Counted from the stretch's first letter, positions 38,676 to 50,337 are shown. The stretch is DNA of 51,910 nt from Acidimicrobiales bacterium (GCA_004282895.1 SHLQ01000002.1:1-51910); one strand, 5' to 3'. A program made the numbers and translations. The notes: generated from the letters alone by a model not told the origin.

Positions 38676-41672
38676 TCAGCCGCCCAGGAATGCAGACAGC
38701 GCATCCTCGATTACATCGCCGCCGACACCACAATCCGCGGCCGCCGCCGAGATGAGCTCGACCGCTGCGGGCGACGCTTGGACGATGCCAGCCGCAATCA
38801 GCTCGTCGTCGGTTGCCAGCAGGCTGAGCCGCTCGATGACGCAGTTGGCGACGTTCGGCGGCTGGTCCTGACCGATGAGGAGATCGAACAGGGTGCCGCC
38901 GATGAGCGTGTCGGGACGAGCGTCTCCGAAGCTCTCGACGTCCACGGCCGGGCCCTCGTCGAAGGGTTCTTCGCCTTCGGCGGGAGCAACGGTGGTTGTT
39001 GTCGTGGTCGTGGTGGTAGTCGTCGTGGGCAAGGCCACGGGGGAGTAGGCGACTTCGCTCGACGCACCGACCGAGGTGTCGGCGGAGTTGTAGATGAGGA
39101 ACGCTCCGACGATCATGGCGACCGCGGAAACGAAGGCGACGATTGCCTGTGTTCCCCGAGGGGGCGAGGCCAGTTGCACCGCGCCAGCCTTGTCCAGTGA
39201 CGTGTCGCCGGTTCCGAGCCATCCGCGTTCGTCAACCCACACGGCGAGCGGTGGCATCACAACCAGAGCCGACAGAAGGGCGATGGCAACGTTGAGCGTC
39301 ACGATGATGCCAAAGTCACGCAAGAGCGGCAGTGCCGACAGGACGAGCACCGCGAATCCGCCGATGGTGGTCATGGCCGAGGTGAAGAAGGCTCGGCCGG
39401 TGCGGCGGGCGGCGTGATGGCTGGCGTCCTCAGAAGAGAAACCCCGCTGCCGTTCCTCGAGGAAGCGCGCCAGGATCAGCACGGAGAACTCCGCACAGGT
39501 TGCGACCACGAGCGGCCCGCTGACGGTCGTGAGCGGGCTGAGTTCGATCCCGGAGAGGCCAACGACCAGCGAGGAAATGCCGACGGCCAACAGCACGGGC
39601 ACCATCGCCAAAATGGCCCGGGGCAGGCTGCGAAGGCGCAGGACAAGGAAGAGTCCGGCGACCATCAACGACAGGTACGTCAGGGCGGCCCGGTTGGCCG
39701 ACAGGTTCTCGAGCAGGCCGATGCCGACAGTGGCAAGCCCAGCGGGTGTAGCGCGCACGGCGTCCTGCCCAGCGGGGAGGTCCGTCAGCACGATGCTCTC
39801 CGCGGGGATGTCGAGCGCGGCGATCTTTGCATCGAGGTCGGCTTTGAGCTCGTCGACGATGACGGCGCGCTCTTCGAGGCTGGCCGGGGCGATCCGTAGG
39901 TTGATCTGAGTTGCGGTCAGGTCGGGTCGAACGAGCAGTCGGGCTACGTCCGGCGGCATGACGGCACCGGCCGCGACGATGTCATCGCTCGATGGCGGAA
40001 TGACTGTCGCGCCTTCGATCTTGATGATCTTGCCCATCGTGTTGACGAGGCTGGAGCTGGAGACGACCGCTCCGTCAGCTCGCGACTCTGCGGTGTCCGT
40101 GAAGTCGTGAATCAGGTTGATCACGGCGGGATCGTAGACATTGTTGGCTTCGACGAGGACGCCGAGGGTGGTGGCGAACCCGGTTTCGTCCTCGAGCTTC
40201 TCGAGATCGGCGACGGCTTGGCTGCCTTGGTCGATCCAACGGATCGGATCGGACTGAATCGTTGCGCTGCCTTCAGCGAAGACACCACCGACGAACAACG
40301 CCGCCGAGATGGCGATGAGGAAAGGGCTGATGGCAGTCGGAAGGCTGCCGAGCTTGACCACGATGCGTTCGACGAGGGACTCGCCGCGGTCATCGGTGGG
40401 CACGGTCCACTCGCGAATGCCGAGGATTGCGGTCGGAATCACGATGCCGGCGATCACGAGAGCGGCGACACCGATCGAGAGTAGAACGCCGAAGTCCCGA
40501 ATCATCGGCACTTTGGAGATCTGCAGTGAAAGGAAGGCGAGGATGGCGGCAATCGTGGCGATGATTAGTGCTGGCGCGATATTGGCCAGCGTTTCCGCAA
40601 TTGGATGCTCCTCCTTGTCGAGCACGGCCTCCTCTTCCACGCGGTTGTGGATCTGGATCGCGAAGTCGATGCCCAAACCGATGAGTATTGGCAGGCCGGA
40701 GATCGTGACGAGGCTGAGGTCGATCCCGACCAGGCCGACGATGGCGAACGCCCAGAGCACACCGATAACCACGGCCAACAGAGGCAGTAGGCGCCAACGC
40801 ACCTGGAACATCAGGGCGAGCACGACGGCCATGACGGCGAGGGCGGCGGCGCCCAGGGTGAGCATGCCACCCTTGAGATAGTCGTTGATTTCCTTCAGGT
40901 AGACCGGGGAGCCGGTGACGGTGAGATCGAAGTCTTCGAAGGATGCGGTCTCGAGGATGGCGAGGAGGTCTTCGGTGGAGGCGGATTGTTCGTCGAGGGT
41001 CGCGTTGCCATCGAGCACGATGCCGCCGACCGAGGTCTGCTGGTTGGGGAACGTGGAAGCGAGCGAGAGTCGGATGGCGCGGTCCGCGTCGGCGGGAGCG
41101 ACCGGCGCGCCATCGACGATCTCGAAGTTGTCGTTGCCGAAGATGAGGAGGTCGTTGTAGGTCGTATTGCCGATTACCTGCTCGCCCGCGGCACCGAGGC
41201 GCGAGAGGGCGATGCCAATATCGGCCGACCGGGCGGCGGCACCTTCGGTGTCTCGCTGTGATGCCCCGATCAGCGCGTTCGATCCGATCCCTCCCGAGAG
41301 CAGGTTGTGGCTGAACGTGACGGAGGTGAGCGGCGTTACGACGGCATAGACACCTTCGACCTCGGCGAGTTCGGCGTTCAGTCGCTGAAACTCGGCGAGG
41401 TTGGCGCCGGCGAAGAGATCGGCCACGTCGACGCCGGATCCGTCTTGCGCGGTGAACAGAAGAATGACGGTTTCGCCGCCGAAGTCGTTCTGAAATTCGA
41501 CATTGTCGAGTGCAATCTGGGAATCCGGATTCAGGTAGCTGTCCTGACCGGTTGCGAATTCGAGCTGGCGCAGTCCGAGCACCAGCACGGCGGAGAACAC
41601 CAGAACCGCAAGCATCACCAACTTCCAGTGTTTACCCAATGCGACACCGGTAGTGCGCCAAAAGCTTTCCAT
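38676..41672 (-). CDS. MMPL/RND-superfamily transporter with an extra C-terminal TM, poly-Thr linker and extracytoplasmic tail domain
   Basis: It has a 12-TM MMPL layout with two large loops. I prefer the ATG at 41672, which has GGAGGGG upstream. After the core come an additional TM (AIVAFVSAVAMIVGAFLIY), then T12 (PTTTTTTTTTTTTV), then about 100 aa with two Cys. Confidence 0.8.
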   Translation of the reverse strand: MESFWRTTGVALGKHWKLVMLAVLVFSAVLVLGLRQLEFATGQDSYLNPDSQIALDNVEFQNDFGGETVILLFTAQDGSGVDVADLFAGANLAEFQRLNAELAEVEGVYAVVTPLTSVTFSHNLLSGGIGSNALIGASQRDTEGAAARSADIGIALSRLGAAGEQVIGNTTYNDLLIFGNDNFEIVDGAPVAPADADRAIRLSLASTFPNQQTSVGGIVLDGNATLDEQSASTEDLLAILETASFEDFDLTVTGSPVYLKEINDYLKGGMLTLGAAALAVMAVVLALMFQVRWRLLPLLAVVIGVLWAFAIVGLVGIDLSLVTISGLPILIGLGIDFAIQIHNRVEEEAVLDKEEHPIAETLANIAPALIIATIAAILAFLSLQISKVPMIRDFGVLLSIGVAALVIAGIVIPTAILGIREWTVPTDDRGESLVERIVVKLGSLPTAISPFLIAISAALFVGGVFAEGSATIQSDPIRWIDQGSQAVADLEKLEDETGFATTLGVLVEANNVYDPAVINLIHDFTDTAESRADGAVVSSSSLVNTMGKIIKIEGATVIPPSSDDIVAAGAVMPPDVARLLVRPDLTATQINLRIAPASLEERAVIVDELKADLDAKIAALDIPAESIVLTDLPAGQDAVRATPAGLATVGIGLLENLSANRAALTYLSLMVAGLFLVLRLRSLPRAILAMVPVLLAVGISSLVVGLSGIELSPLTTVSGPLVVATCAEFSVLILARFLEERQRGFSSEDASHHAARRTGRAFFTSAMTTIGGFAVLVLSALPLLRDFGIIVTLNVAIALLSALVVMPPLAVWVDERGWLGTGDTSLDKAGAVQLASPPRGTQAIVAFVSAVAMIVGAFLIYNSADTSVGASSEVAYSPVALPTTTTTTTTTTTTVAPAEGEEPFDEGPAVDVESFGDARPDTLIGGTLFDLLIGQDQPPNVANCVIERLSLLATDDELIAAGIVQASPAAVELISAAAADCGVGGDVIEDALSAFLGG

Positions 41673-41865
41673 GGACCCCTCCAGAACCACTATGAAACGA
41701 CGAACGTCGCCCACTTTGGTCCCTCTATCTATAGCCGCATAGGGCCAGCAGTCCCAAAGTGGTTGGGCGAGGACCTGAGACCCTAGGTCCCGCTCTCCTT
41801 CAGGCGTACGTTCGGAAGTGTTGCGTGAATACGCAGCTGATGTTCACCACTGGAGGTGGCAGACC

Positions 41866-42502
41866 ATGACTGCCGGCAAGATCTTTGCGTTGTTTTTTGG
41901 CGCGCTTGGAGTGATCATCGGAACGATATTGGCAACAGCTACCGTCATCGTTCTGGTTCAGGAGCCCGAGCCAGTTCGTCGGCATCGGACGAACGGTCGA
42001 CGTGGATCGGTACCTGTCCGGTGTGAATCACGACGAGATCCGCAGCATCGACATCGATAATGAGGCCGTGGTTGATGTTCGCTATGAGAACCACCCGGGC
42101 ACAGCTGTCCCGGCGGCACCAGGACTGCAGTCGTTCTGGGAGGTGTCCTCCGAGGGAGTCGGCACCCAGACACTCTGGTGGGATATTGACGCTGGCAACT
42201 GGACCGTGGTTGCGATGAACGCCGATGGTTCGGCCGGCGTCGACGCGGATCTCGCGTTCGGACTCAAGATCGCCAACCTCGGTGCCATCGCGTGGACGGT
42301 CTTCGGTTTCGGCCTGATCTCGCTGCTACTCGGTGGTTTCCTGTTCTACCGTGGAATTCGACCACCAATGACCGTGGAGCTGCCTCCTCCGTCCCAGCCT
42401 CGACCCCCGATGGTGGGCGAACCACGCGCCACAGATGTTGACCTGCGCGAGTACATCGATCTCGATCAGCCGCCCGTGCGGGAGCAGCGAGCGACCAGCT
42501 GA
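41866..42502 (+). pseudogene. Membrane protein gene apparently split by a +1 frame change (N-terminal TM ORF 41866..42060; body ORF frame open from 41915, GTG at 42002, to 42502)
   Basis: ATG 41866 has GGAGG 8 nt upstream and encodes the TM helix KIFALFFGALGVIIGTILATATVIVLV. After about 41970 the plausible protein (FVGIGRTVDVDRYLSGVNHDE...WTVVAMNADGSAGVDADL...C-terminal TM) continues in the +1 frame. Confidence 0.4.
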
Positions 42503-42529
42503 TCCGCGAGTCCAGAACGGCGCCGGAAC

Positions 42530-44320
42530 TCAGGGTTCTCTTACGTAAAGCTCAAAATGGTCGATCGTCATCACGATCCCGAAGTCGATGGTGATGCGGT
42601 CGATGAGCTCCGCAGTCATGTCCGTGTTGTAGGCAGACCGGGTGTCATGAACGATCATCGCCGGATTGACGCTCTCGAACTCGGCCACGAAGTCGCGTAG
42701 CTCGCTGTCGTCGAGAATGCTGATCGTGGGGTTGAATAGCCTGAATCCATTGGCTCGGCGGGCAAGGAAGTACAGATCGGCGTTGTTGGGAACGGTGAAC
42801 AGGACGTCGTTGGCTTGCGTATTGCTGTCGATCAGTTGCAGTAGCTCTGAATAGAGCGCCTCTTCCTGGGGGTCAATCCACAACCCCAGACGGGGCAGTT
42901 CGCTTCGTATGAGATCGACTCTTTGACCGGAGACGAGGTCGCTGTAGGTGCGGGTATATGGCTGGCCCGCATGGAAAGTTGCGGCGACGACGCTCAGCGC
43001 TAGAGCGACGCCAACCACGGAGCGGGTCGACCGCTTGGTCACGCCAACACCCTCGGAGATCGATTCAACACCGACGAATAGCCAGAGTCCGGCGACAATC
43101 GACAGGCCAGCGCTGAGATAGAGGTAGAACGGTATCTGGTTGAACACGGACACCAAGGCGTAGAAGACCGCGACGAACGGAAGCGCGTACTCGGTCGGCA
43201 CGCCCCACTGGGATCGATGGCGAAGACGCCCATACAGCGACCGCCCGATAGCGAACGCCACCACGAGCAGGGCGATCCAGTAGACCGCGTTCAACCTCGC
43301 GATGATCGATCCGAACAACAGTTCATTGATCGAACGAAGCCCAATATCCCAGACGTAGCGTCCGGTCGATATGTGCTCGAGCTCGCCAATGCTCAATGAT
43401 CGAACGAAAGTGTCGCGAGCCCAGGCCCGAACCGATCCATGAAACACGTGATAGCCGACGAGAGGGAGAGCGGACCCGGCGGCACCAAAAGCCAATCGGC
43501 TGAGCAAAATACCGAGGTCCCGAGTGCCGATGGTCGTGTGGGAGAAGGCCCAAATGAGTATCAGAATCGGATAACAGCCGAAGAGCAGCGCGGCGGTGAG
43601 ATCAGTGCTGGTTAGCAGGTATCCAACCAGTCCGACAAGGCTGGCTGCGAGGACGAGGCGGGGTCCGGAGGAGCTGACGGATCGTTGAGGTTCCGGCCGA
43701 CGCTCGACCATGAGGAAGGTCAAGACTCCCATCGCCACGAATACCGCTGTCAGCTGGCGGAACAGAAAGACGAGTCCCAACAATGCGCCGATTGAAAGCG
43801 CCCGGTGTCGTGACTCTGGGCTTGTCCGCTGCAGCAGGTACGTGATGGCGACCGTCGCTCCGAGAGCGTAGAGGCCGGTCGTTGGATTGGCGATCTGAAA
43901 CGTGCCAATCGCAGACATGGTGATAGCGGCGACGGTCGCAACCAGCACACCGGCCTGGCGAAAAATCGCGTGAGTGAGTAGCGACTGAATCGCCATGAGT
44001 GCCATCAGTGGGTAACGCAAGGAGACGATCCGGTCGCCGAAGATCTCCAGTGACCATGCGTGTATGAAGTGGACGTAGCCCGGATGCAGTTCTTCGACGT
44101 CCGCGTTCAAGACTTCGCCCTGGGATATGCGCTCTGCGACATGCACATAGTGACCATCGTCCGATGGAATCCAAGCTTTGTCGAAGAAGAGCCAGATGAG
44201 GATCAGGTTGGCCGCGACGACCAGAAGCACTCCGACTGCGTAGTCGCGGTTAGGGCCAACTTCGACGGATCGCCTCACGGTCCGAGATTCAGCGTCAGTG
44301 TCTATCTGCGCGAGTGTCAC
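42530..44320 (-). CDS. GT-C fold glycosyltransferase (ArnT/PMT_2-like polyprenyl-phosphate-sugar-dependent transferase) with a C-terminal extracytoplasmic domain
   Basis: 596 aa with about 11-12 TM. An acidic first-loop motif (WIPSDDGHYVHVAE) sits in the position of the GT-C catalytic Asp pair. The last roughly 150 aa are soluble. A GTGA overlap couples it to the upstream GT2. Confidence 0.7.
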   Translation of the reverse strand: MTLAQIDTDAESRTVRRSVEVGPNRDYAVGVLLVVAANLILIWLFFDKAWIPSDDGHYVHVAERISQGEVLNADVEELHPGYVHFIHAWSLEIFGDRIVSLRYPLMALMAIQSLLTHAIFRQAGVLVATVAAITMSAIGTFQIANPTTGLYALGATVAITYLLQRTSPESRHRALSIGALLGLVFLFRQLTAVFVAMGVLTFLMVERRPEPQRSVSSSGPRLVLAASLVGLVGYLLTSTDLTAALLFGCYPILILIWAFSHTTIGTRDLGILLSRLAFGAAGSALPLVGYHVFHGSVRAWARDTFVRSLSIGELEHISTGRYVWDIGLRSINELLFGSIIARLNAVYWIALLVVAFAIGRSLYGRLRHRSQWGVPTEYALPFVAVFYALVSVFNQIPFYLYLSAGLSIVAGLWLFVGVESISEGVGVTKRSTRSVVGVALALSVVAATFHAGQPYTRTYSDLVSGQRVDLIRSELPRLGLWIDPQEEALYSELLQLIDSNTQANDVLFTVPNNADLYFLARRANGFRLFNPTISILDDSELRDFVAEFESVNPAMIVHDTRSAYNTDMTAELIDRITIDFGIVMTIDHFELYVREP

Positions 44321-45120
44321 TGAGCGGACCGGAGCGGGAACCTAGCCGACCGGATTACACGTGCACCCGCCAATCTCGACTCAATCGAGGTTGCCAGGCA
44401 GCCAAAGCCGTACTGGACACTGCGGCGGAAGTTGATCGACGATGCGTCGGTCGCGTAACGCGTCGGACAGCTCACCTCAGCGATCTTGAATCCGGACCAC
44501 AGAGTTTGCGCAAGCATCTGGTTGTCGAACACAAATCCGTCGGAGTTGGCATCGAGGGGCAGCTCCTCCAACAGCTCACGGGAGAAGGCACGATAGCCCG
44601 TGTGATACTCAGACAGTTTTGCTCCCAGGATCATGTTCTGGGCAAGTGTGAGGAACCGGTTGGCGACATAGCGCCATATCGGCATACCTCCATGGCGGGC
44701 ATGACCGCCGAGGATGCGTGAACCCAGCACACAGTCGTAGAGCCCCGACTCGATCATTGTGACCATGGCGGGGAGGATTTTCGGGGTGTACTGGTAGTCC
44801 GGGTGCACCATGACGACGATGTCCGCCCCGTGTTCCAACGCTGTCTCGTAGCAGGTCTTCTGGTTGCCGCCGTAGCCTCGGTTTTCTGGGTGTCGGATAA
44901 CGGTCGTTCGCTCCAGTCCAGCCGCGATCGTCGCGGTGCGGTCGCTGCTTGAGTCGTCGACCAGGATGACGGCATCGACACAGTCGTGTGCCACCACCTC
45001 GGAGTGGGTTTTCCTGACGGTGTGTTCTGCGTTGTAGGCGGGCATTACAACGACCACACGCTTCCGCTCGGGTTTGCGGAACGGTTCACCGTCGAAGTCG
45101 TGGATGGCGCGGACGCTCAT
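44317..45120 (-). CDS. Family 2 glycosyltransferase, soluble polyprenyl-phosphate sugar synthase-like (Ppm1/DPM1/ArnC-like)
   Basis: VVVVMPAYNAEHTV, ILVDDSSSDRT, NRGYGGNQKTCY and VMVHPDYQYTP form a classic GT2 (GT-A) core. There are no TM segments. Confidence 0.85.
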   Translation of the reverse strand: MSVRAIHDFDGEPFRKPERKRVVVVMPAYNAEHTVRKTHSEVVAHDCVDAVILVDDSSSDRTATIAAGLERTTVIRHPENRGYGGNQKTCYETALEHGADIVVMVHPDYQYTPKILPAMVTMIESGLYDCVLGSRILGGHARHGGMPIWRYVANRFLTLAQNMILGAKLSEYHTGYRAFSRELLEELPLDANSDGFVFDNQMLAQTLWSGFKIAEVSCPTRYATDASSINFRRSVQYGFGCLATSIESRLAGARVIRSARFPLRSAQ

Positions 45121-46094
45121 CGGATCGCCGGGTTCGTTTCAGACTTAACGAAGACGAGTTCCATTGTCCCGCCGCGCCGGGCCAACGACTCGACCGAAGC
45201 GAGCAGCGCGAAGACGGGGTATGTGACCACAAACAGGGCCTTCTGCAGCGTCAATGAGACTCGGCTGTGTCGACGCGTGACGTCGATGTTTCCTTTCAGA
45301 CTCTCGTAAAGCACGTCTCGTTCACTCAAGACGGCGTTGAGCAGGCTTTGAAGTATCCCGAACGGGTTTTGCTCGAGAGAGAAAAACGAGGTTGATTCGT
45401 GTCGGAAGCCCAGGCTCTCGACTTCTGCGGTGAGCGTGTCTGGTCCGAGGTAGAACAGGTGTCGGGGAGGATCGTGATGCAACCAGTTGCCCTCGAACAC
45501 CCGGCTTTGCCAACTGTCGACGTTCGGGAGTGACATGAGCAGTCGGCCCCCCGGCGCGAGCATGTCAGCGACGATCTCCAGGGTTTTGCGGGGCTCCACC
45601 AGATGTTCGAACACGTGCCACATTGTCACTGCGTCGAATTGCTGGCCGGCGTAGTGGCCGTCCTCAAGTGTTCCAACATGGACCGTTATGTTTGGAACTT
45701 CTTTGGCGCGCTGAGCAGAGCCTCCGGGAAGCTCGATCCCGTGGGCCTCGTAGCCGCGATCGGCGAGTGCCTTGAGGAAGCCACCGTTCCCGCATCCGAT
45801 ATCGAGCACGCGCCCACCAGGATTCACCGTTCTTGCAACACGACGAGACCGGCTGGAACGAAAGACGTCGATGACGCGTTCAATAGGTGCAATGAACTTG
45901 CGGGTGGTCGTGCCGTAGTACTCATCGCTGTACGCCGCGGACAGTTCAGCGCCGGTCGGGCGTGGCGCCAGAAACACCGCGTCACAGCTGTTGCAGAACC
46001 GAAAGCTGTACTCGTCGCCAGCAATGGAAGAAGTTGCGTACAGATATGAGCTGTCGTCACGCCCGCAGTACCCGCAGCTCGAGTTTCCCATCAT
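45117..46094 (-). CDS. Class I SAM-dependent methyltransferase with an N-terminal Cys4 zinc-ribbon
   Basis: CGYCGR...CNSCDAVF, then motif I VLDIGCGNGGFLKAL and FDAVTMWHVFEHL (Methyltransf_11/23-like). ATGA overlaps occur at both ends. Confidence 0.8.
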   Translation of the reverse strand: MMGNSSCGYCGRDDSSYLYATSSIAGDEYSFRFCNSCDAVFLAPRPTGAELSAAYSDEYYGTTTRKFIAPIERVIDVFRSSRSRRVARTVNPGGRVLDIGCGNGGFLKALADRGYEAHGIELPGGSAQRAKEVPNITVHVGTLEDGHYAGQQFDAVTMWHVFEHLVEPRKTLEIVADMLAPGGRLLMSLPNVDSWQSRVFEGNWLHHDPPRHLFYLGPDTLTAEVESLGFRHESTSFFSLEQNPFGILQSLLNAVLSERDVLYESLKGNIDVTRRHSRVSLTLQKALFVVTYPVFALLASVESLARRGGTMELVFVKSETNPAIR

Positions 46095-47143
46095 GAGGGA
46101 AGTCCCAGTGTGGCTTGTAGCGGCTTCTGTCGAACCTTCCAGATGCGGCTGTCCACGATGTAGTGGTGGAAGTTGATCGTTTGATAGACGATGATCGGCG
46201 CGACGATTAGCGCCAGCGTGAGTTGGAGCGTCAGATAGATGACAGTCGATGCAGCAATCGACAAGGCGAAGTACAGGACGACGCGATCTCCTGAACTCAT
46301 CTGTTGAATAAACGTCGGCGTGCTCGCCTCAGCAGCGTGTCGGTTGTTGAAGTGCCATACGAAAGCCAGGTATTGAGCGTTGTGCCAGACATTGATAACC
46401 AGCCACCCATGGTCGATCTCGCCAATGAGCAGGTAGCCGGCCGCGAAGATCACGAGATGACTGGCGAAGAAGACGGTGTGCATCACCGGGAGAGTGCCGT
46501 TGCGCCACGCGATGAGGCGGGCAGCTGCGACACCGAGCATCGCCAAGATGGCGGATGCGCCAACGATCGTAACGAGCCAGCTCGGCACAGGGATCGTCTT
46601 GACCTCGACCCGCAGGAACTCGTCGGGACTCTGGTGGGAGCGATGCAGGATCCCCCACAGCGGCAACAGATAGAAGGCTGCAGCAAAGAGCCGTGGATTC
46701 TCTGGCAGTGGTCCGCCTGACTTCCGTTCGTACACCCGGGCGATGCCCCACGATTGCCGGGTGTAGTGGAACCACTGCCAGTACAGATAGACCGTCGTGA
46801 GGGCCCAGAAGCCAACACCAAGCCCGACTGCCAGTACCGCAACAAGGACGGCTATTGGTAGCCGGGTGATGAGTCCGAGGTGCTCGCGAACGCTGTCACG
46901 ATCGGCTCCCAGGCGACTGTACGTTGCGACAACGTGGTGGAATCCCAACAGCCATATGTCGAGCGCAAGAACCAGAAGAAAGAGGTCCGGGCGTGCCAGT
47001 ACGATTGCACCCGAGACCGCTGCAAGGGCCACAGGAACCGCAACAAACGACAGGTCGAATCGTCTGCTTCTGATCCACGGCGGCGCGGATTGAATGACAT
47101 TCATGCTCACACTTGCAACGGTAGGACTGGGCCGTGATTTCAC
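46091..47143 (-). CDS. Polytopic His-rich membrane protein of unknown family (first gene of the glycosylation operon)
   Basis: About 8-9 TM. Recurrent His motifs: LLGFHHVVATYSRL, WQWFHYTRQSWGI, HRSHQ, VWHNAQYLAFVWHFNNRH and NFHHYIVDSRIWKVR. Start is GTG 47143 or ATG 47104. I recognise no family. Confidence 0.6.
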   Translation of the reverse strand: MKSRPSPTVASVSMNVIQSAPPWIRSRRFDLSFVAVPVALAAVSGAIVLARPDLFLLVLALDIWLLGFHHVVATYSRLGADRDSVREHLGLITRLPIAVLVAVLAVGLGVGFWALTTVYLYWQWFHYTRQSWGIARVYERKSGGPLPENPRLFAAAFYLLPLWGILHRSHQSPDEFLRVEVKTIPVPSWLVTIVGASAILAMLGVAAARLIAWRNGTLPVMHTVFFASHLVIFAAGYLLIGEIDHGWLVINVWHNAQYLAFVWHFNNRHAAEASTPTFIQQMSSGDRVVLYFALSIAASTVIYLTLQLTLALIVAPIIVYQTINFHHYIVDSRIWKVRQKPLQATLGLPS

Positions 47144-47145
47144 GA

Positions 47146-47163
47146 ATCCCCAAAATTGGGGAT
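47146..47163. promoter_or_regulatory. 18-nt palindrome ATCCCCAA-AA-TTGGGGAT upstream of the four-gene operon (candidate operator)
   Basis: I checked 8+8 complementary positions by hand. It lies 3 nt upstream of GTG 47143 and 42 nt upstream of ATG 47104. Confidence 0.3.
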
Positions 47164-47252
47164 CCGACGTGTAGTCCGGTGGGTCTCATGATCACGCGGG
47201 TGGATTCATCCACTTCCCCATCGTCCCCGAAGGCCGGGAGCCGCGCACGGTT

Positions 47253-47873
47253 CTACTTCGGAAGCTTTGCTACTCCGTCTCCGGTGAGGTCGGCGCTGGC
47301 ATTGCGACGGTTGATGCCAATCAGAATTGACGCAGCCGGGCCGGACACGAGCGCACCCTCGCCCCACGACCAGTCCATGTCGGTCGCCTCCAAGCGGAGC
47401 CCTTCGATGTCCTTGGGGTCAACGTGGATCTTCCGTTGTTTGTGGGTGGTCACCCAATCGAGTGAGTAGCGAAGAACTTCCGGATCGACCGCACCGTCCA
47501 GTCCCAACCCGCGACGCACATCCTCGATGTGTACTGCCACGTCCATGATGGTCAGGCCAGACGAGAAGGTTGGGATCGGGGCGGTCTTCGAACCCTTGTC
47601 CCGCAACGCCTTCGATATGGCGGCCGGACCCATCGCCTTGTACTTCTCGGCGTTCGCGTTCCATGCCTTGTCGATGTTGAAGCCGGCCTTGGCCATGCTG
47701 AGCATCATCGCCGGCAGCGACAGCTCGACGAAGCTCACCAGGTGTCCGGCCACGTCGAGCGGCGTCCAGTTGGCGCACAGTGTCTTTCCGGCCAACTGCT
47801 CCTCCGACAGGCTGTCGAGCAGATCGGCAAAGTCGCCTCGCGCCTTTGCGGCAAGGTCCCAGCGGTCTTCCAT
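47253..47873 (-). CDS. Mycothiol-dependent maleylpyruvate isomerase N-terminal (DinB_2/MDMPI, TIGR03083-like) family protein
   Basis: The N-terminal segment FADLLDSLSEEQLAGKTLCANWTPLDVAGHL is characteristic of the actinobacterial TIGR03083 family. Length is 206 aa. Confidence 0.75.
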   Translation of the reverse strand: MEDRWDLAAKARGDFADLLDSLSEEQLAGKTLCANWTPLDVAGHLVSFVELSLPAMMLSMAKAGFNIDKAWNANAEKYKAMGPAAISKALRDKGSKTAPIPTFSSGLTIMDVAVHIEDVRRGLGLDGAVDPEVLRYSLDWVTTHKQRKIHVDPKDIEGLRLEATDMDWSWGEGALVSGPAASILIGINRRNASADLTGDGVAKLPK

Positions 47874-48004
47874 GTCATCCCCCTCGTTCGTGGATCTTTA
47901 CATCCCTGACGAACGGTCTACCCGAATTCGGACACCTTGGACACTTGCAGATGGGTGGCTCGCTACATTCGTATCTTCCCGATCGCCGGAACTAGTCTGC
48001 GCGG

Positions 48005-49186
48005 ATGCGTGGTTTGAGTGTTCCCGAGTCGGGCGAGGACTTCACCGCGGACCCGGTCGAGCTGTTCTTCGATCTGGCGTTCGTCTTTGCGTTCTCGCAG
48101 CTGGTTGCCCATCTCGTTCATCATCCGGACTGGACGGGTGCATGGGAGGCGGCCTTGTTGTTCGCCATCCTCTGGCTGGCGTGGTCGTGGTTCACGTGGG
48201 CGGCCAACGCGGTGCCGGGGAATCAGCGGCCGGTGCGTGCCATCTTCCTCGTCGCCACGGCCGTCACCGTGCCGATGGCGGCTTCGGTTGGCACCGCATT
48301 CGGGTCGGGCGGCCTGACCTTCGCCTTGTCTGGGGCCGCGATCATGTTGATGTCGATCGGACTGCAGATCCTGGCGCTCGACAACGACTCGGCCATGTTC
48401 CAGGCAGCGATGAAGTTGACGGCGCCGGTCCTGGTCTCGCTACTTCTCCTGGTGATCGGCGGGTTTGTTGACGGCGACGCGCGGGTCGCTCTGTGGGTCG
48501 CCATGGTGGTGATCACGCTGCTGGGCACGGTCGCCGCGGGGTCGGGGGAGTGGATCGTGCGAACCGGCCACTTCGCCGAACGTCACGGCCTGATTCTGAT
48601 CATTGCGCTCGGTGAGGTGATCGTCGCGATTGGCATCGCCGTCGTGCAGGGCCTGGACGAGGGCGGGCTGACGTCCACACTTCGCATCGCCATGACTGCG
48701 GCTGGCGTGTTTGCCGGGTTGTTGTGGTGGTCGTACTTCGATCGGGTGCTGCCCGCGCTGGAGCATCGTGGTGAGCAGGAGGAGACCGCGTCGCTGGGTC
48801 GGTATGCGCGAGATGTCTACACGTGGGCGCACGCGCCGATCATCGCCGGTGTGATCACCGCCGCGGCGGCGGTCGAGGAGATCCTGCTGCATCCGGGTGA
48901 TCCGTTGCACGCGGAATTCCGCTGGATGTTCGTCATTGGCGTCGGTCTGTACTTCGGTGGCATCGCCATCACCGTCTTTCGAGCGTGGCGAGCTCTGGCG
49001 TTCGAGCGACTGTGGGCGCTGGCGGTCATCGTGGTGTTGATGCTGGTGTCCGGCTCATGGGACGGGGTGTGGTTGTTGATCGCCGTAGACGTCACCCTGC
49101 TGGTTGCGCTGGTCCTTGAGAACGTCCGCGTGGAGTCACGAACCAGGGAACAAGCCGAGGAGTTCGCCGAGCAACTGGAGGCTTAG
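48005..49186 (+). CDS. Low-temperature-requirement A (LtrA) family membrane protein
   Basis: The N-terminal motif VELFFDLAFVFAFSQL and a polytopic body of about 390 aa fit the LtrA family. Confidence 0.8.
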   Translation: MRGLSVPESGEDFTADPVELFFDLAFVFAFSQLVAHLVHHPDWTGAWEAALLFAILWLAWSWFTWAANAVPGNQRPVRAIFLVATAVTVPMAASVGTAFGSGGLTFALSGAAIMLMSIGLQILALDNDSAMFQAAMKLTAPVLVSLLLLVIGGFVDGDARVALWVAMVVITLLGTVAAGSGEWIVRTGHFAERHGLILIIALGEVIVAIGIAVVQGLDEGGLTSTLRIAMTAAGVFAGLLWWSYFDRVLPALEHRGEQEETASLGRYARDVYTWAHAPIIAGVITAAAAVEEILLHPGDPLHAEFRWMFVIGVGLYFGGIAITVFRAWRALAFERLWALAVIVVLMLVSGSWDGVWLLIAVDVTLLVALVLENVRVESRTREQAEEFAEQLEA

Positions 49187-50337
49187 CTTCGGTTTTGGTT
49201 TAGCCGTTGGTGGCCTCTGGTGGCCAGTAGACCAGCGCCAATGAGTGCGGCGGCGACCACAAGCAACGGCAACGTTTCGCGACCCGTGAGAGGAAGGGTC
49301 GGCTCGGGTGCTGTCCAGACATAGATGCCATCTGCTGCCGTGGCGACCACGGTGGTGCCGATCGCGGCCACGTCATGGAAGTCGGCGCCGTCCACGCGAT
49401 GCTCGATCCACTCGATCCCGTCCGTTGAAACGAGAACCCGCTCGGGTCCGACACCTACGAACCCGAAATCGCTGGCGGTCATAGCGACGTCGCCATCGTC
49501 AATTCCCGCGTCCGTCCACGTCGTACCACCATCCATGGACACCCACAGGCCGCCAGTGCCCTTGCCAGCCAGAACGAGCGTCTCGCCGTCCGAGGTCAAC
49601 GACGCACTTCGAAGGGCTGCCTCATATCCCACCCATCGGGTGAAAGAGAACTCCGGTCCAGCGCCAGGCTTTCGGGGAGGTCCTTGCGCGTCCACCTCAC
49701 TCCAGACGACGCCGTCTGTTGACGTCAGGATCCCAAAATCGTCAGCGCCTACGGTGAGGGCCACCCAGCGGTCGTCGAGTTGCGCAGCGATGACGCTGAT
49801 GCAGCCGGAAGGAAGATCCGATGGCGCCCACTGACGTCCATCCGACGAGAAATGCGCCACGGACTCGCACTTCCGATCACCCGCCACAAGGAACCCACGA
49901 GGTCCGCTATTCACCTGCCAGAAGTTGAACCCACGTCCAACGCTAGCGTTTTCCCATTCGAGACCGTCGGAGGAGAACAGGACGGAGCCTTCCGGTTGAC
50001 GTAGTCCTTTGGTCACCACGAAGCCAGCATCGCTGGCGGCAAGGTCCCACACAATCACCGTCCCCTCTGCGTCCGTGACGGCTTGCCATTCGAGTCCATC
50101 AGCGGACCAGAATGCGAGATCGTCGAGGGCTCGAACCACAAAGCCCCTGCCCTCGCTGCTCGCGACTGCAGACCATCGTGGCATCGGCTCCTGAAGCCGA
50201 AGCTCCCATCCGGTGCCCAGATCGGGCGAAGTCGACTCCTGACCAGCGACAGCCGTTGCACCGATCATGAGCGCAACCAACGCCAGCGCCACTACCCGTA
50301 CCGGTTTCGATGCCCAGAGAGATCGCACCGCAACCAC
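49183..50337 (-). CDS. Cell-wall-anchored (LPXTG) beta-propeller protein with SxDGxxW (BNR/Asp-box-like) blades
   Basis: Signal peptide (VRVVALALVALMIGATAVAG). Blades: WSADGLEWQAV, FSSDGLEWENA, FSSDGRQWAPS, TSTDGVVWSEV, VSMDGGTTWTDA, VSTDGIEWIEH. The C-terminal LPLTG (49282..49296) is followed by a hydrophobic helix and an RGHQR tail. The start is uncertain (GTG 50337 or 50328). Confidence 0.7.
   Translation of the reverse strand: MVAVRSLWASKPVRVVALALVALMIGATAVAGQESTSPDLGTGWELRLQEPMPRWSAVASSEGRGFVVRALDDLAFWSADGLEWQAVTDAEGTVIVWDLAASDAGFVVTKGLRQPEGSVLFSSDGLEWENASVGRGFNFWQVNSGPRGFLVAGDRKCESVAHFSSDGRQWAPSDLPSGCISVIAAQLDDRWVALTVGADDFGILTSTDGVVWSEVDAQGPPRKPGAGPEFSFTRWVGYEAALRSASLTSDGETLVLAGKGTGGLWVSMDGGTTWTDAGIDDGDVAMTASDFGFVGVGPERVLVSTDGIEWIEHRVDGADFHDVAAIGTTVVATAADGIYVWTAPEPTLPLTGRETLPLLVVAAALIGAGLLATRGHQRLNQNRS

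What the first reader, a model, noticed from the sequence alone, without database searches (positions are those of the whole stretch)
42530..47143. Translationally coupled four-gene envelope-glycosylation operon led by an unrecognised His-rich polytopic membrane protein
Four minus-strand ORFs are chained by 4-nt start/stop overlaps: ATGA at 46091..46094 and 45117..45120, and GTGA at 44317..44320. This implies stoichiometric co-expression. The 5'->3' order has four genes. First is a protein of about 8-9 TM with repeated His motifs (FHH, WFHYTRQ, WHNAQY…WHFNNRH, FHHYIVDSRIWK) that I cannot assign to any family. Second is a Cys4 zinc-ribbon SAM methyltransferase. Third is a soluble GT2 of the polyprenyl-phosphate-sugar synthase type. 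Fourth is a GT-C transferase with an acidic first-loop motif (SDDGHY) and a 150-aa outer domain. GT2 plus GT-C is the established logic of Ppm1/Pmt protein O-mannosylation and of ArnC/ArnT lipid modification. The added methyltransferase and the His-rich membrane protein do not belong to either paradigm. The latter might be a metal-dependent modifying enzyme, a flippase or an acceptor-specific factor. I infer a system that makes a (methylated?) lipid-linked sugar and transfers it to an extracytoplasmic acceptor. This is my best candidate for an undescribed system in the window.
Basis: partly seen in the sequence, partly recalled or inferred. Interest (0 to 1): 0.7.

Follow-up and report, generated by a model that had tools for sequence, protein, structure and literature searches.

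The report
Unannotated His-core membrane protein with swappable partners
The four genes are real, but they are a conserved three-gene sugar-attachment cassette joined to a member of a large, unannotated membrane-protein family that in other bacteria sits next to acyl- or amino-acid-attaching enzymes instead, suggesting an undescribed cell-envelope function.

Summary
Four minus-strand ORFs (46091..47143, 45117..46094, 44317..45120, 42530..44320) are chained by 4-nt overlaps. Three assignments are verified: a Cys4-ribbon SAM methyltransferase, a soluble GT2 nearest to Dol-P-Man synthase and ArnC, and a GT-C enzyme (fold confirmed, acidic loop conserved).

The His-rich protein ("HIS") cannot be assigned. 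It has no Pfam, NCBIfam, PDB-sequence or Foldseek match despite a confident model (pTM 0.82). It belongs to a large family: 2,378 clusters at 50% identity, about 384 reference species, many phyla.

The four genes are not a fixed set.
- MTase–GT2–GT-C is a conserved cassette that also occurs without HIS, including in the GT-C's closest relatives.
- Around HIS (64 loci with at least 2.5 kb on both sides), the neighbour is an AT3 acyltransferase in 52%, this GT-C family in 16% and a Dlt-like aminoacylation set in 6%.
- These partners are mutually exclusive at the 2.4-kb scale and are swapped between sister HIS genes.
- Conversely, 52% of well-flanked GT-C loci carry HIS.

Best reading (inferred): HIS is a 10-TM enzyme whose four-His core faces the cytoplasm. 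It makes or presents a membrane-anchored acceptor, which interchangeable outer-face modules then cap. Function is untested.

The parts
46091..47143 (-). HIS: 10-TM His-core membrane protein of an unannotated family (probable start GTG at 47110, 339 aa)
   Evidence: ORF. No Pfam or NCBIfam hit. No PDB sequence hit. AF2 pLDDT 83.9, pTM 0.82 with no Foldseek match. More than 1,116 homologs, and 2,378 clusters at 50% identity. Invariant core is H59, H115, H243, H316, D320 in 339-aa numbering. Topology is N-in/C-in.
45117..46094 (-). Cys4 zinc-ribbon class I SAM methyltransferase with a C-terminal hydrophobic segment
   Evidence: PF13489 at 3.9e-25. Invariant C7/C10/C34/C37 and the GxGxG motif. The C-terminal hydrophobic stretch is conserved in the orthologs of L168 and L169. 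Its start overlaps the HIS stop.
44317..45120 (-). Soluble GT2, polyprenyl-phosphate-sugar-synthase-like
   Evidence: PF00535 at 2.8e-23. Best NCBIfam hits are AglJ, PpgS and Dol-P-hexose transferase, all below their cutoffs. Nearest solved relatives are Pyrococcus Dol-P-Man synthase 5mlz (8e-8) and ArnC.
42530..44320 (-). GT-C fold glycosyltransferase with a conserved acidic first loop (W50..D54-D55-G56) and a C-terminal extracytoplasmic alpha/beta domain (~459-596)
   Evidence: PF13231 at 30.4 bits against GA 26.1. AF2 pLDDT 92.4, pTM 0.93. The top 23 Foldseek PDB hits are all GT-C enzymes: STT3, DPY19, AftA, PglB, ALG12, Pmt4, EmbA/B/C. Motif conservation.

Best explanation
**Shown.** The locus is a composite of two modules.

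*Module 1* is a conserved MTase-GT2-GT-C cassette of the known multi-component transmembrane glycosylation type. A cytoplasmic GT2 loads a sugar onto a polyprenyl phosphate. A GT-C enzyme transfers that sugar to an acceptor on the outer face of the membrane. A SAM methyltransferase is a regular third member of the cassette.

*Module 2* is HIS, a member of a large unannotated family. HIS has 10 TM helices with N-in/C-in topology. Four parallel helices (TM2, TM4, TM8, TM10) each contribute one invariant His in the cytoplasmic half of the membrane. One helical turn below each His lies a polar residue (T63, Q119, Y247/Q246, D320), and conserved Arg residues (R66, R118, R327) sit at the cytoplasmic mouth.

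Across bacteria the gene next to HIS is one of three alternatives, which are mutually exclusive within about 2.4 kb of HIS:
- an AT3 acyltransferase (about half of loci);
- this GT-C cassette;
- a Dlt-like aminoacyl-transfer set.

These partners are exchanged between sister HIS genes.

**Inferred.** HIS is an intramembrane, probably metal-dependent, enzyme that works on a lipid or lipid-linked substrate at the cytoplasmic leaflet. It makes or presents one membrane-anchored, hydroxyl-bearing acceptor. After that acceptor reaches the outer face, whichever partner module the genome carries caps it with an acyl, an aminoacyl or a (possibly methylated) glycosyl group. In this window the cap would be a (methyl)glycosyl group, and the HIS/MTase ATGA overlap couples HIS translationally to the cassette.
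For: **HIS is unannotated and has no known relatives.**
- No curated family or structure matches it.
- A GT-C model run through the same Foldseek pipeline finds 23 GT-C structures, which serves as a positive control.
- The family is large and strongly conserved: about 50% identity across phyla, and 57 invariant columns in 35 sequences.

**Partner statistics around HIS** (64 loci with at least 2.5 kb on both sides):
- AT3: 33
- this GT-C family: 10
- Dlt-like: 4
- none detected: 13

Of 33 full-length AT3 hits, 30 lie downstream on the same strand within 200 bp.

**Partner identities.**
- AT3: PF01757, 1.9e-22.
- Dlt-like set: DltA-like adenylation enzyme at 1.5e-68, and an MBOAT whose best match is DltB.
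- GtrA/SMR-type flippases and MTases in the GT-C loci.

**Evolutionary pattern.**
- Partner types are interleaved on the HIS tree, and sister pairs differ in partner.
- Reciprocal sampling from GT-C gives GT2 86%, MTase 76% and HIS 52% in 21 well-flanked loci, in at least three different gene orders.
- Mirror-tree correlations: HIS-AT3 r=0.77, HIS-GT-C r=0.66.

**Topology and core.**
- K+R count is 20.3 on the N-terminal side against 1.5 on the other, and the core His sit at relative depth 0.48-0.77.
- The core residues survive down to about 23% identity.
- An LPG_synthase_TM flippase-like gene lies between or beside HIS and its partner in L012 and L027.
Against: - No biochemical or genetic data exist for any family member.
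- Metal binding and the lipid nature of the substrate are inferred only from residue identity, topology and the lack of soluble domains.
- The cassette occurs without an adjacent HIS in about half of loci, including the closest relatives of the window's GT-C. HIS is therefore not obligatory in cis.
- About 20% of HIS loci show no recognisable partner, and the divergent branch P0343 stands alone.
- HIS also has a conserved motif on the outer face (PLWGILxRSxQxP..FLG..PVP, including R157). That would fit a trans-membrane transfer role as well as an acceptor-making one.
- The mirror-tree signal is partly shared species phylogeny.
Confidence: 0.45

Rival explanations
1. One reading: a dedicated four-gene pathway in which HIS is a glycosylation-specific component. 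It would be a flippase for the lipid-linked sugar, a sugar-modifying enzyme or an acceptor-specific factor, expressed stoichiometrically with MTase, GT2 and GT-C.
For: - The HIS stop and MTase start overlap, and the same four-gene order is found in the 99%-identical contig.
- HIS lies near this GT-C family in 11 of 21 well-flanked loci.
- The window's cassette has no GtrA-type flippase gene.
Against: - The window HIS's nearest relatives (72% and about 55% identity) are followed by AT3 or Dlt-like genes, not by the cassette.
- The MTase-GT2-GT-C operon is intact without HIS in L168 and L169.
- Loci that have HIS, GT2 and GT-C together also carry their own SMR/GtrA-type small membrane protein.
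- Half of all HIS genes pair with an acyltransferase.
Confidence: 0.12
2. HIS is itself a fourth kind of trans-membrane tailoring enzyme. It would take a group from a cytoplasmic donor and pass it to the same extracytoplasmic polymer or lipid that AT3, Dlt-like or GT-C enzymes decorate. The genes would cluster because they act in parallel on one target.
For: - Conserved polar residues run from the cytoplasmic mouth to mid-membrane, and there is a conserved outer-face motif including R157.
- The cassette and HIS can each occur alone.
- Tailoring genes for one polymer are known to cluster (own knowledge: Oac, Gtr and Opt for O-antigen; Dlt and CsbB/YfhO for LTA; reviewed in PMC8035078).
Against: - AT3, GT-C and Dlt-like partners are mutually exclusive around HIS, apart from one locus where the GT-C lies 8 kb away. 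A free-mixing tailoring island should show combinations.
- The strict HIS-then-AT3 order with gaps of 18-154 bp in 30 of 33 pairs looks like a two-step unit.
Confidence: 0.2
3. HIS is an O2-dependent Fe/His membrane oxygenase or hydroxylase, working like membrane desaturases/hydroxylases or Brp/Blh carotenoid dioxygenases. It would introduce a hydroxyl group, or cleave a lipid, and the partner would then esterify or glycosylate the product. This is a specific chemical version of the best explanation.
For: - Four invariant His on four helices, plus three more in the main clade (H58, H218, H315), lie in the cytoplasmic half of the membrane.
- All three partner types attach groups to hydroxyls (own knowledge).
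Against: - The canonical His boxes (HX3-4H, HX2-3HH) are absent from the sequence.
- There are no Pfam or NCBIfam hits to the FA_desaturase, FA_hydroxylase or Brp/Blh models.
- There is no Foldseek match to the solved SCD1, AlkB or FA2H structures.
- No redox-partner genes recur nearby.
- The family occurs in MAGs of lineages that are usually anaerobic: Thermodesulfobacteriota, Dehalococcoidia, Thermoanaerobaculia and Spirochaetaceae. This last point is weak evidence.
Confidence: 0.12
4. HIS has an unrelated housekeeping role, such as metal or solute transport or redox, and its adjacency to envelope transferases is genomic hitchhiking.
For: - His/Asp HxxxD-type motifs in TM helices also occur in metal transporters (own knowledge).
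- About 20% of loci have no partner, and the divergent branch stands alone beside UbiB/COQ9 genes.
Against: - Same-strand, near-abutting AT3 is found in many phyla against unrelated flanking synteny.
- Association with an orthologous GT-C family arose independently in at least three gene orders.
- The mirror-tree correlation is positive.
- There is no internal repeat or transporter-like fold match.
Confidence: 0.08

Closest known systems
Multi-component transmembrane glycosylation systems: GtrA/GtrB/GtrC for O-antigen, and CsbB/GtcA/YfhO or GtlA/GtlB for lipoteichoic acid (PMC8035078, PMC7389260)
   Same: A GT2 that resembles polyprenyl-phosphate sugar synthases, plus a GT-C enzyme with an acidic first loop and an outer domain. 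Sister loci also carry a GtrA- or SMR-type small membrane protein.
   Different: - The window's GT2 is soluble, with no C-terminal TM helices.
- The window has no flippase gene.
- A SAM methyltransferase is a regular cassette member (76% of loci).
- The GT-C family is unnamed: no NCBIfam or PDB sequence hit.
- The acceptor is unknown.
- None of the known systems includes a HIS-like protein.
Ppm1/Pmt protein O-mannosylation and PpgS/Rv3779, ArnC/ArnT lipid or glycan modification (own knowledge; NCBIfam PpgS and ArnC models)
   Same: GT2-plus-GT-C logic. The window GT2's weak best matches include PpgS (2.3e-17) and ArnC (4e-9). Pmt4 and AftA are among the GT-C fold matches.
   Different: - All NCBIfam scores are far below the family cutoffs.
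- There is no PF02366 (PMT) hit, and the GT-C has no phmmer match to any PDB chain, ArnT included.
- The PMT_2 match is marginal (30 bits).
- So this is a separate GT-C family.
Alternative O-tailoring modules for one envelope polymer: Oac/OafA (AT3) versus GtrABC on O-antigen, and DltABCD versus glycosylation on teichoic acids (own knowledge; PMC8035078)
   Same: The three partner types found next to HIS (AT3, Dlt-like, GT2+GT-C) are the same enzyme classes that act as alternative decorations of one acceptor in these systems.
   Different: In the known systems the acceptor is made by large, well-known pathways. Here the constant element is a single 340-aa membrane protein of unknown function, and the partners are mutually exclusive within about 2.4 kb of it.
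His-cluster integral membrane enzymes: membrane desaturases/hydroxylases, alkaline ceramidase/PAQR, and Brp/Blh (own knowledge)
   Same: Invariant His residues on TM helices near the cytoplasmic face suggest a metal site acting on a lipid.
   Different: No sequence, profile or fold similarity was detected. The His spacing differs from the canonical boxes. HIS has 10 TM helices.

Membership tests
GT-C glycosyltransferase superfamily (window 42530..44320) | GT-C fold: polytopic N-terminal module plus an extracytoplasmic domain | tested here: met
   AF2 pTM 0.93. The top 23 Foldseek PDB hits are all GT-C enzymes, with E-values down to 1.6e-7 and probability 0.87-1.00.
GT-C glycosyltransferase superfamily (window 42530..44320) | Conserved acidic motif in the first extracytoplasmic loop | tested here: met
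   In the 14- and 15-sequence alignments, D54 is invariant, residue 55 is always D or E, and G56 is invariant. D54 is conserved in at least 90% of 43 sequences.
GT-C glycosyltransferase superfamily (window 42530..44320) | Uses a polyprenyl-phosphate-linked sugar donor | not testable with these tools
   Only indirect evidence: a GT2 of the polyprenyl-P-sugar synthase type is adjacent in 86% of well-flanked loci.
Protein O-mannosyltransferase PMT / GT39 | PF02366 PMT domain and a MIR-domain loop | tested here: not met
   Only PF13231 (PMT_2) is hit, at 30.4 bits. There is no PF02366 or MIR hit, and no phmmer hit to any PDB chain.
ArnT / GT83 | Sequence membership in the ArnT family | tested here: not met
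   No NCBIfam hit. No PDB sequence hit. ArnT is not among the listed top-50 fold matches.
GT2 polyprenyl-phosphate glycosyltransferases (DPMS/GtrB/ArnC-like) (window 44317..45120) | GT2 (GT-A) catalytic domain most similar to polyprenyl-P-sugar synthases | tested here: met
   PF00535 at 2.8e-23. Best NCBIfam hits are AglJ, PpgS and Dol-P-hexose transferase. Best PDB hits are DPMS 5mlz and ArnC.
GT2 polyprenyl-phosphate glycosyltransferases (DPMS/GtrB/ArnC-like) (window 44317..45120) | Equivalog-level membership (score above the curated cutoff) or C-terminal TM helices | tested here: not met
   All NCBIfam scores (at most 68.5 bits) are far below their cutoffs. The protein is 267 aa with no TM segment. 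Sister cassettes use a different GT2 that does have TM helices.
Class I SAM methyltransferase (window 45117..46094) | Rossmann MTase domain with a GxGxG SAM motif | tested here: met
   PF13489 at 3.9e-25. G100, G102 and G104 are invariant, and the Cys4 ribbon C7/C10/C34/C37 is invariant.
Three-component Gtr / CsbB-GtcA-YfhO type system | GT2 plus small GtrA/GtcA-type flippase plus GT-C | tested here: inconclusive
   GT2 and GT-C are present. The window has no small flippase gene in the cluster. GtrA (PF04138, 1.2e-15) or an SMR-like protein is present in the sister loci L082, L016 and L041.
Membrane fatty-acid desaturase / hydroxylase superfamily (for HIS) | Three His boxes (HX3-4H, HX2-3HH, H/QX2-3HH) and a Pfam match | tested here: not met
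   The sequence has HH, H, H, H, HH with different spacing. There is no Pfam hit for 38 diverse members even at E up to 10. There is no Foldseek match.
Brp/Blh beta-carotene dioxygenase family (for HIS) | Match to PF15461 or TIGR03753 | tested here: not met
   No hit in Pfam or NCBIfam. The four-His resemblance is recalled from memory only.
AT3, MBOAT or GT-C (HIS as a divergent paralogue of its own partners) | Detectable profile-profile homology | tested here: not met
   hhalign probability is below 1% against alignments of each partner family.
Repeat-built secondary transporters (for HIS) | Internal structural or sequence repeat, or a transporter fold match | tested here: not met
   hhalign of the N-half against the C-half gives probability 0.5%. 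There is no Foldseek match with E below 0.6.

The most novel reading that the evidence does not exclude
HIS founds a new class of intramembrane (metallo)enzyme with a previously unseen 10-TM fold. It generates a so-far-undescribed membrane-anchored envelope molecule, probably a modified lipid, in diverse bacteria including Acidimicrobiia, Alphaproteobacteria and Acidobacteriota. The AT3, Dlt-like and MTase-GT2-GT-C modules would be interchangeable 'capping' cassettes for that molecule, making this a new modular envelope-lipid decoration system.
Probability: 0.3. Interest if true: 0.85.

Novelty: new variant of a known kind. Interest (0 to 1): 0.62.

Why it matters
- **A new cassette variant.** The glycosylation cassette extends the Gtr/CsbB-YfhO paradigm to an unnamed GT-C family with an integral methyltransferase, found across soil and marine phyla.
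- **An uncharacterised family.** HIS is strongly conserved, widespread and chromosomal. Its model is confident, yet it has no sequence or fold relatives.
- **A concrete lead.** Its gene neighbourhood points to the cell envelope. Three chemically different outer-face transferase systems are exchanged next to it as if they were equivalent.
- **A cheap test.** A two-gene knockout with lipidomics could reveal a new envelope lipid or polymer and a new enzyme fold.
- **If HIS turns out to be mundane,** the MTase-GT2-GT-C cassette and its unknown acceptor are still an uncharacterised surface-modification system.

Tried and rejected
1. **Natural HIS-AT3 or HIS-c42 fusions.** The long ORFs (658-883 aa) proved to be out-of-frame upstream extensions of the downstream gene in high-GC DNA, not fusions.
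2. **An MMPL lipid exporter as part of the system.** It is found only in the near-identical contig.
3. **Other recurrent neighbours.** Molybdopterin oxidoreductase, glucokinase, ABC-F, GH15, GSDH, pentapeptide-repeat and Cpa pilus genes are lineage-specific synteny.
4. **HIS as a divergent AT3, MBOAT or GT-C, or as an internally repeated transporter.** hhalign probability is below 1%.
5. **Remote links through divergent family members.** No Pfam label or name appears in any branch.
6. **HIS on plasmids or phages.** No tblastn match. There is also no BFVD fold match.
7. **Operon boundaries.** The promoter/terminator scan and Rfam found nothing informative.
8. **Literature.** Two full-text searches found no description of the family, only the known three-component systems.
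9. **GT-C-like status of L070, L015 and L172.** These neighbours have no Pfam hit. Their 'DDA(W/Y)I' first-loop motif is my reading only, so they are counted separately.

Full report
**1. Observation.**

The four minus-strand ORFs are present at 46091..47143 (350 aa), 45117..46094 (325 aa), 44317..45120 (267 aa) and 42530..44320 (596 aa). Reading the sequence confirms the three overlaps: ATGA at 46094..46091, ATGA at 45120..45117 and GTGA at 44320..44317.

A 99%-identical public contig (L086, Acidimicrobiales MAG GCA_013001425.1) has the same four-gene order. Its gene caller chose later starts for the GT2 (242 aa) and the GT-C (566 aa). Only the HIS/MTase overlap is therefore independent of start choice. 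The longer GT2 start retains the first Rossmann strand, and the Pfam match begins at residue 24.

No promoter-like site, convincing terminator or Rfam element lies inside the cluster.

**2. The three recognisable enzymes.**

*Methyltransferase.* It hits PF13489 at 3.9e-25. It has an invariant Cys4 ribbon (C7, C10, C34, C37) and a GxGxG motif. It also has a C-terminal hydrophobic stretch that is conserved in its orthologs.

*GT2.* It hits PF00535 at 2.8e-23 and has no TM segment. Its best curated-family matches are AglJ, PpgS and Dol-P-hexose transferase, all far below their cutoffs. Its nearest solved relatives are Pyrococcus Dol-P-Man synthase (8e-8) and ArnC.

*GT-C.* Its Pfam match is marginal: PMT_2 at 30.4 bits against a cutoff of 26.1. 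It has no NCBIfam or PDB-sequence hit.
- An AlphaFold model built on 43 homologs is excellent (pLDDT 92.4, pTM 0.93).
- Its top 23 Foldseek matches in the PDB are all GT-C enzymes: STT3/OST, DPY19, AftA, PglB, ALG12, Pmt4 and EmbA/B/C.
- The first-loop motif is conserved: W50, then D54 (invariant in the 14- and 15-sequence alignments), D/E55 and G56.
- A C-terminal alpha/beta domain covers residues ~459-596.

The refutation criterion 'the GT-C lacks the acidic loop' is not met.

**3. The His-rich protein (HIS).**

*No known relatives.* HIS has no hit in Pfam or NCBIfam. It has none in PDB sequences, either as a single sequence or as a profile. Pfam also finds nothing when 38 diverse members are scanned at E up to 10.

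*Size and spread of the family.*
- More than 1,116 homologs were scored in the 5.8-billion-protein index, all 'hypothetical'.
- The exhaustive search found 2,378 clusters at 50% identity with E ≤ 1e-3.
- About 384 of 185,579 reference species carry a relative. They span Acidimicrobiia, many Alphaproteobacteria, Acidobacteriota, 'delta' proteobacteria, Gemmatimonadota, Planctomycetota, Dehalococcoidia, Spirochaetaceae and several Gammaproteobacteria.
- Identity is about 50% across phyla, and 57 columns are invariant in 35 sequences.
- None was found on plasmids or phages.

*Structure.* An AlphaFold model is confident (pLDDT 83.9, pTM 0.82) and shows 10 TM helices. Foldseek finds nothing in the PDB (best E 0.65, TM about 0.2) or in BFVD. 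The GT-C result shows that the same pipeline does recognise polytopic membrane folds.

*Conserved core.* With members down to 23% identity included, these residues remain:
- H59 on TM2
- Q112, H115, R118 and Q119 on TM4
- W242, H243, Q246 and Y247 on TM8
- H316, Y317 and D320 on TM10
- T63 and R66

The 'WHFNNRH' histidines are not conserved.

*Topology.* Charge counts over 75 sequences give 20.3 K+R on the N-terminal side against 1.5 on the other. The protein is therefore N-in/C-in, and the four core His sit at relative depth 0.48-0.77, in the cytoplasmic half of the membrane.

*Negative homology tests.* There is no internal repeat and no profile similarity to AT3, MBOAT or GT-C.

**4. Is the four-gene set co-conserved? 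No, but there is a stronger pattern.**

I fetched 80 genome loci around HIS, plus several contigs found through exact-protein look-up. I then analysed the neighbours both with targeted tblastn and with unbiased clustering.

Among the 64 distinct loci with at least 2.5 kb on both sides of HIS:

| Neighbour of HIS | Loci |
|---|---|
| AT3 acyltransferase (PF01757) | 33 (52%) |
| Full-length homolog of the window's GT-C | 10 (16%) |
| Dlt-like set | 4 (6%) |
| Other GT-C-like proteins (motif only) | 3 |
| LPG_synthase_TM protein alone | 1 |
| Nothing recognisable | 13 (20%) |

The other GT-C-like proteins rest on motif alone. A further locus outside this 64-locus subset (L054) carries a GT87 confirmed by Pfam.

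- *AT3.* Of 33 full-length AT3 hits, 30 lie directly downstream on the same strand within 200 bp.
- *Dlt-like set.* It comprises a carrier protein, a DltA-like adenylation enzyme (1.5e-68), an MBOAT whose best match is DltB, and an N-anchored DltD-position protein.
- *Exclusivity.* AT3, GT-C and Dlt-like partners are mutually exclusive. The only exception is one locus where the GT-C lies 8 kb away.
- *Partner swapping.* On a neighbour-joining tree of 74 HIS proteins the partner types are interleaved, and sister genes differ in partner. Examples are window(GT-C)/L001(AT3), L007(Dlt)/L026(AT3), L002(Dlt)/L067(AT3), L016(GT-C)/L030(AT3) and L082(GT-C)/L080(AT3).
- *Flanks.* Genes flanking the pairs are lineage-specific synteny.
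- *Co-inheritance.* Pairwise identities of HIS and its partner correlate: r=0.77 for AT3 and r=0.66 for GT-C, both with Mantel p=0.0005. Shared species phylogeny contributes to these values.

**5. The reciprocal view from the GT-C.**

A metagenome scan with a GT-C alignment returned 80 independent loci. In the 21 loci with at least 5 kb of total flank:

| Neighbour of the GT-C | Loci |
|---|---|
| GT2 | 18 (86%) |
| SAM methyltransferase | 16 (76%) |
| HIS | 11 (52%) |
| All three together | 10 |

At least three gene orders occur:
- GT-C > GT2 > MTase < HIS
- HIS > GT-C > GT2
- GT-C > MTase < GT2 < HIS

In the genome loci the recurring block is HIS-GT2(TM)-small SMR/GtrA-type protein-MTase-GT-C.

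The GT2 and MTase are not always orthologous to the window's. Some cassettes use a GtrB-like GT2 with TM helices and a different class I MTase. Cys4-ribbon MTases like the window's occur next to the GT-C in L022 and L078.

The window GT-C's closest relatives (50% and 45% identity) have the same tight MTase(325 aa)-GT2-GT-C operon with no HIS. A third relative (56% identity) has the GT-C with a convergent GT2 and an MTase fragment among transposase genes.

The window's cluster is therefore a conserved three-gene cassette onto which a HIS gene has been grafted with a start/stop overlap. That HIS gene's own closest relatives (72% and about 55% identity) are followed by AT3. The window itself contains no AT3, MBOAT or Dlt-like gene.

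**6. Mechanism.**

*Shown.*
- A cassette of the known multi-component transmembrane glycosylation type, with an integral MTase.
- An unannotated 10-TM family with a four-His, cytoplasm-facing core.
- Repeated, mutually exclusive pairing of that family with three chemically different systems. All three are known, from established work on AT3, Dlt and GT-C enzymes, to deliver groups from cytoplasmic donors to hydroxyl-bearing acceptors on the outer face (own knowledge; PMC8035078, PMC7389260).

*Inferred.*
- HIS is the constant element and its partners are interchangeable, so HIS most likely makes or presents the common acceptor.
- HIS has no soluble domain, and its conserved polar core opens to the cytoplasmic leaflet through an Arg-lined mouth. 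Its substrate is therefore probably a lipid or a lipid-linked molecule.
- The four His and D320 suggest a metal site.
- The MTase's conserved hydrophobic tail fits methylation of a lipid-linked sugar.

*Rivals.* I rank them as follows.
1. HIS as a fourth, parallel trans-membrane tailoring enzyme. Its conserved outer-face motif with R157 is compatible with this.
2. An O2-dependent Fe/His lipid oxygenase version of the main model.
4. An unrelated transporter.

**7. Comparison with known systems and novelty.**

The cassette works like Gtr, CsbB-GtcA-YfhO, Ppm1-Pmt and ArnC-ArnT. It fails membership of PMT/GT39 and of ArnT at the sequence level. Its GT2 is below every equivalog cutoff, it has no flippase gene in the window, and it carries a methyltransferase. 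It is therefore a new variant of a known kind.

HIS fails every membership test I could run: desaturase/hydroxylase His boxes, Brp/Blh, AT3, MBOAT, GT-C and repeat-built transporters. Two full-text searches found no paper describing the family.

The pattern of one small conserved membrane protein with swappable AT3, Dlt-like and GT-C partners is, to my knowledge, undescribed.

**8. Limits.**
- Everything about HIS function is inference from sequence, a predicted structure and gene context.
- No AFDB-scale fold search, HHpred or co-folding could be run.
- About 20% of HIS loci and about half of GT-C loci lack the other partner in cis.
- Many metagenome contigs are short.

**9. Verdict.**

The most interesting element is not a fixed four-gene operon. 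It is the HIS family and its modular partnerships. Interest is 0.62.

Noticed in passing
window 38676..41714 (-): MMPL-family membrane protein (PF03176, 7.8e-36) just downstream of the GT-C on the same strand. It carries a poly-Thr linker ('ALPTTTTTTTTTTTVAPAEGEEP'). Ser/Thr-rich linkers of membrane proteins are known acceptors of GtrB/GT-C-type O-glycosylation (PMC12041528), so it is a candidate acceptor. MMPL does not recur near HIS or the GT-C elsewhere.
   Followed up: partly
window 49183..50337 (-): A 384-aa protein with no Pfam hit. It ends in an LPxTG-like sortase signal ('...TLPLTGRETLPLLVVAAALIGAGLLATRGHQR'), which suggests a wall-anchored surface protein.
   Followed up: no
window 42002..42502 (+): A 166-aa ORF with one C-terminal TM segment and no Pfam hit. 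It lies convergent between the GT-C and the MMPL gene and is conserved in the 99%-identical contig L086.
   Followed up: no
window 42000..48000: G+C dips to 0.595-0.60 over the cluster, against 0.61-0.655 in the flanks. This is compatible with acquisition of the cassette, but the dip is small.
   Followed up: no
L002 3017..7868; L004 9229..14163; L007: The Dlt-like sets next to HIS include two conserved proteins with no family assignment. One is 289-305 aa with only a weak Sulfotransfer_3 hit (1.6e-3). The other is a 377-407 aa N-anchored protein in the DltD position.
   Followed up: partly
L039, L057, L066, L069, L071, L076 (Pyrinomonadaceae): In five of these six loci (all but L039) HIS-AT3 has nearby a conserved zinc-ribbon/TM protein (~220 aa) and a 483-aa polytopic protein with a 'DADFWFHLKTGE' N-terminal motif. 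In L066 these two genes lie upstream of HIS. The 483-aa protein has no Pfam hit.
   Followed up: partly
L170 6001..7014; L171 3948..4961: The divergent HIS branch (P0343, about 23% identical to the window protein) stands alone with no transferase partner. It lies next to UbiB/ABC1 in both contigs. A COQ9-domain gene is also nearby in L170 only.
   Followed up: no
L172 43..3359: The divergent HIS P0230 is preceded, with a 5-bp gap, by a 765-aa polytopic protein with a large C-terminal soluble domain. The architecture is GT-C-like, but it has no Pfam hit and no BLAST similarity to the other partners.
   Followed up: partly
L126 (downstream of the GT-C cassette): In one metagenome contig an AT3-like gene occupies the position that HIS takes in sister arrangements of the GT-C > MTase < GT2 cassette.
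   Followed up: no
L167 10935..14470: The closest GT-C relative (56% identity) sits beside two DDE_3 transposase genes and a truncated MTase (172 aa). This suggests that the cassette is mobile or decaying there.
   Followed up: no
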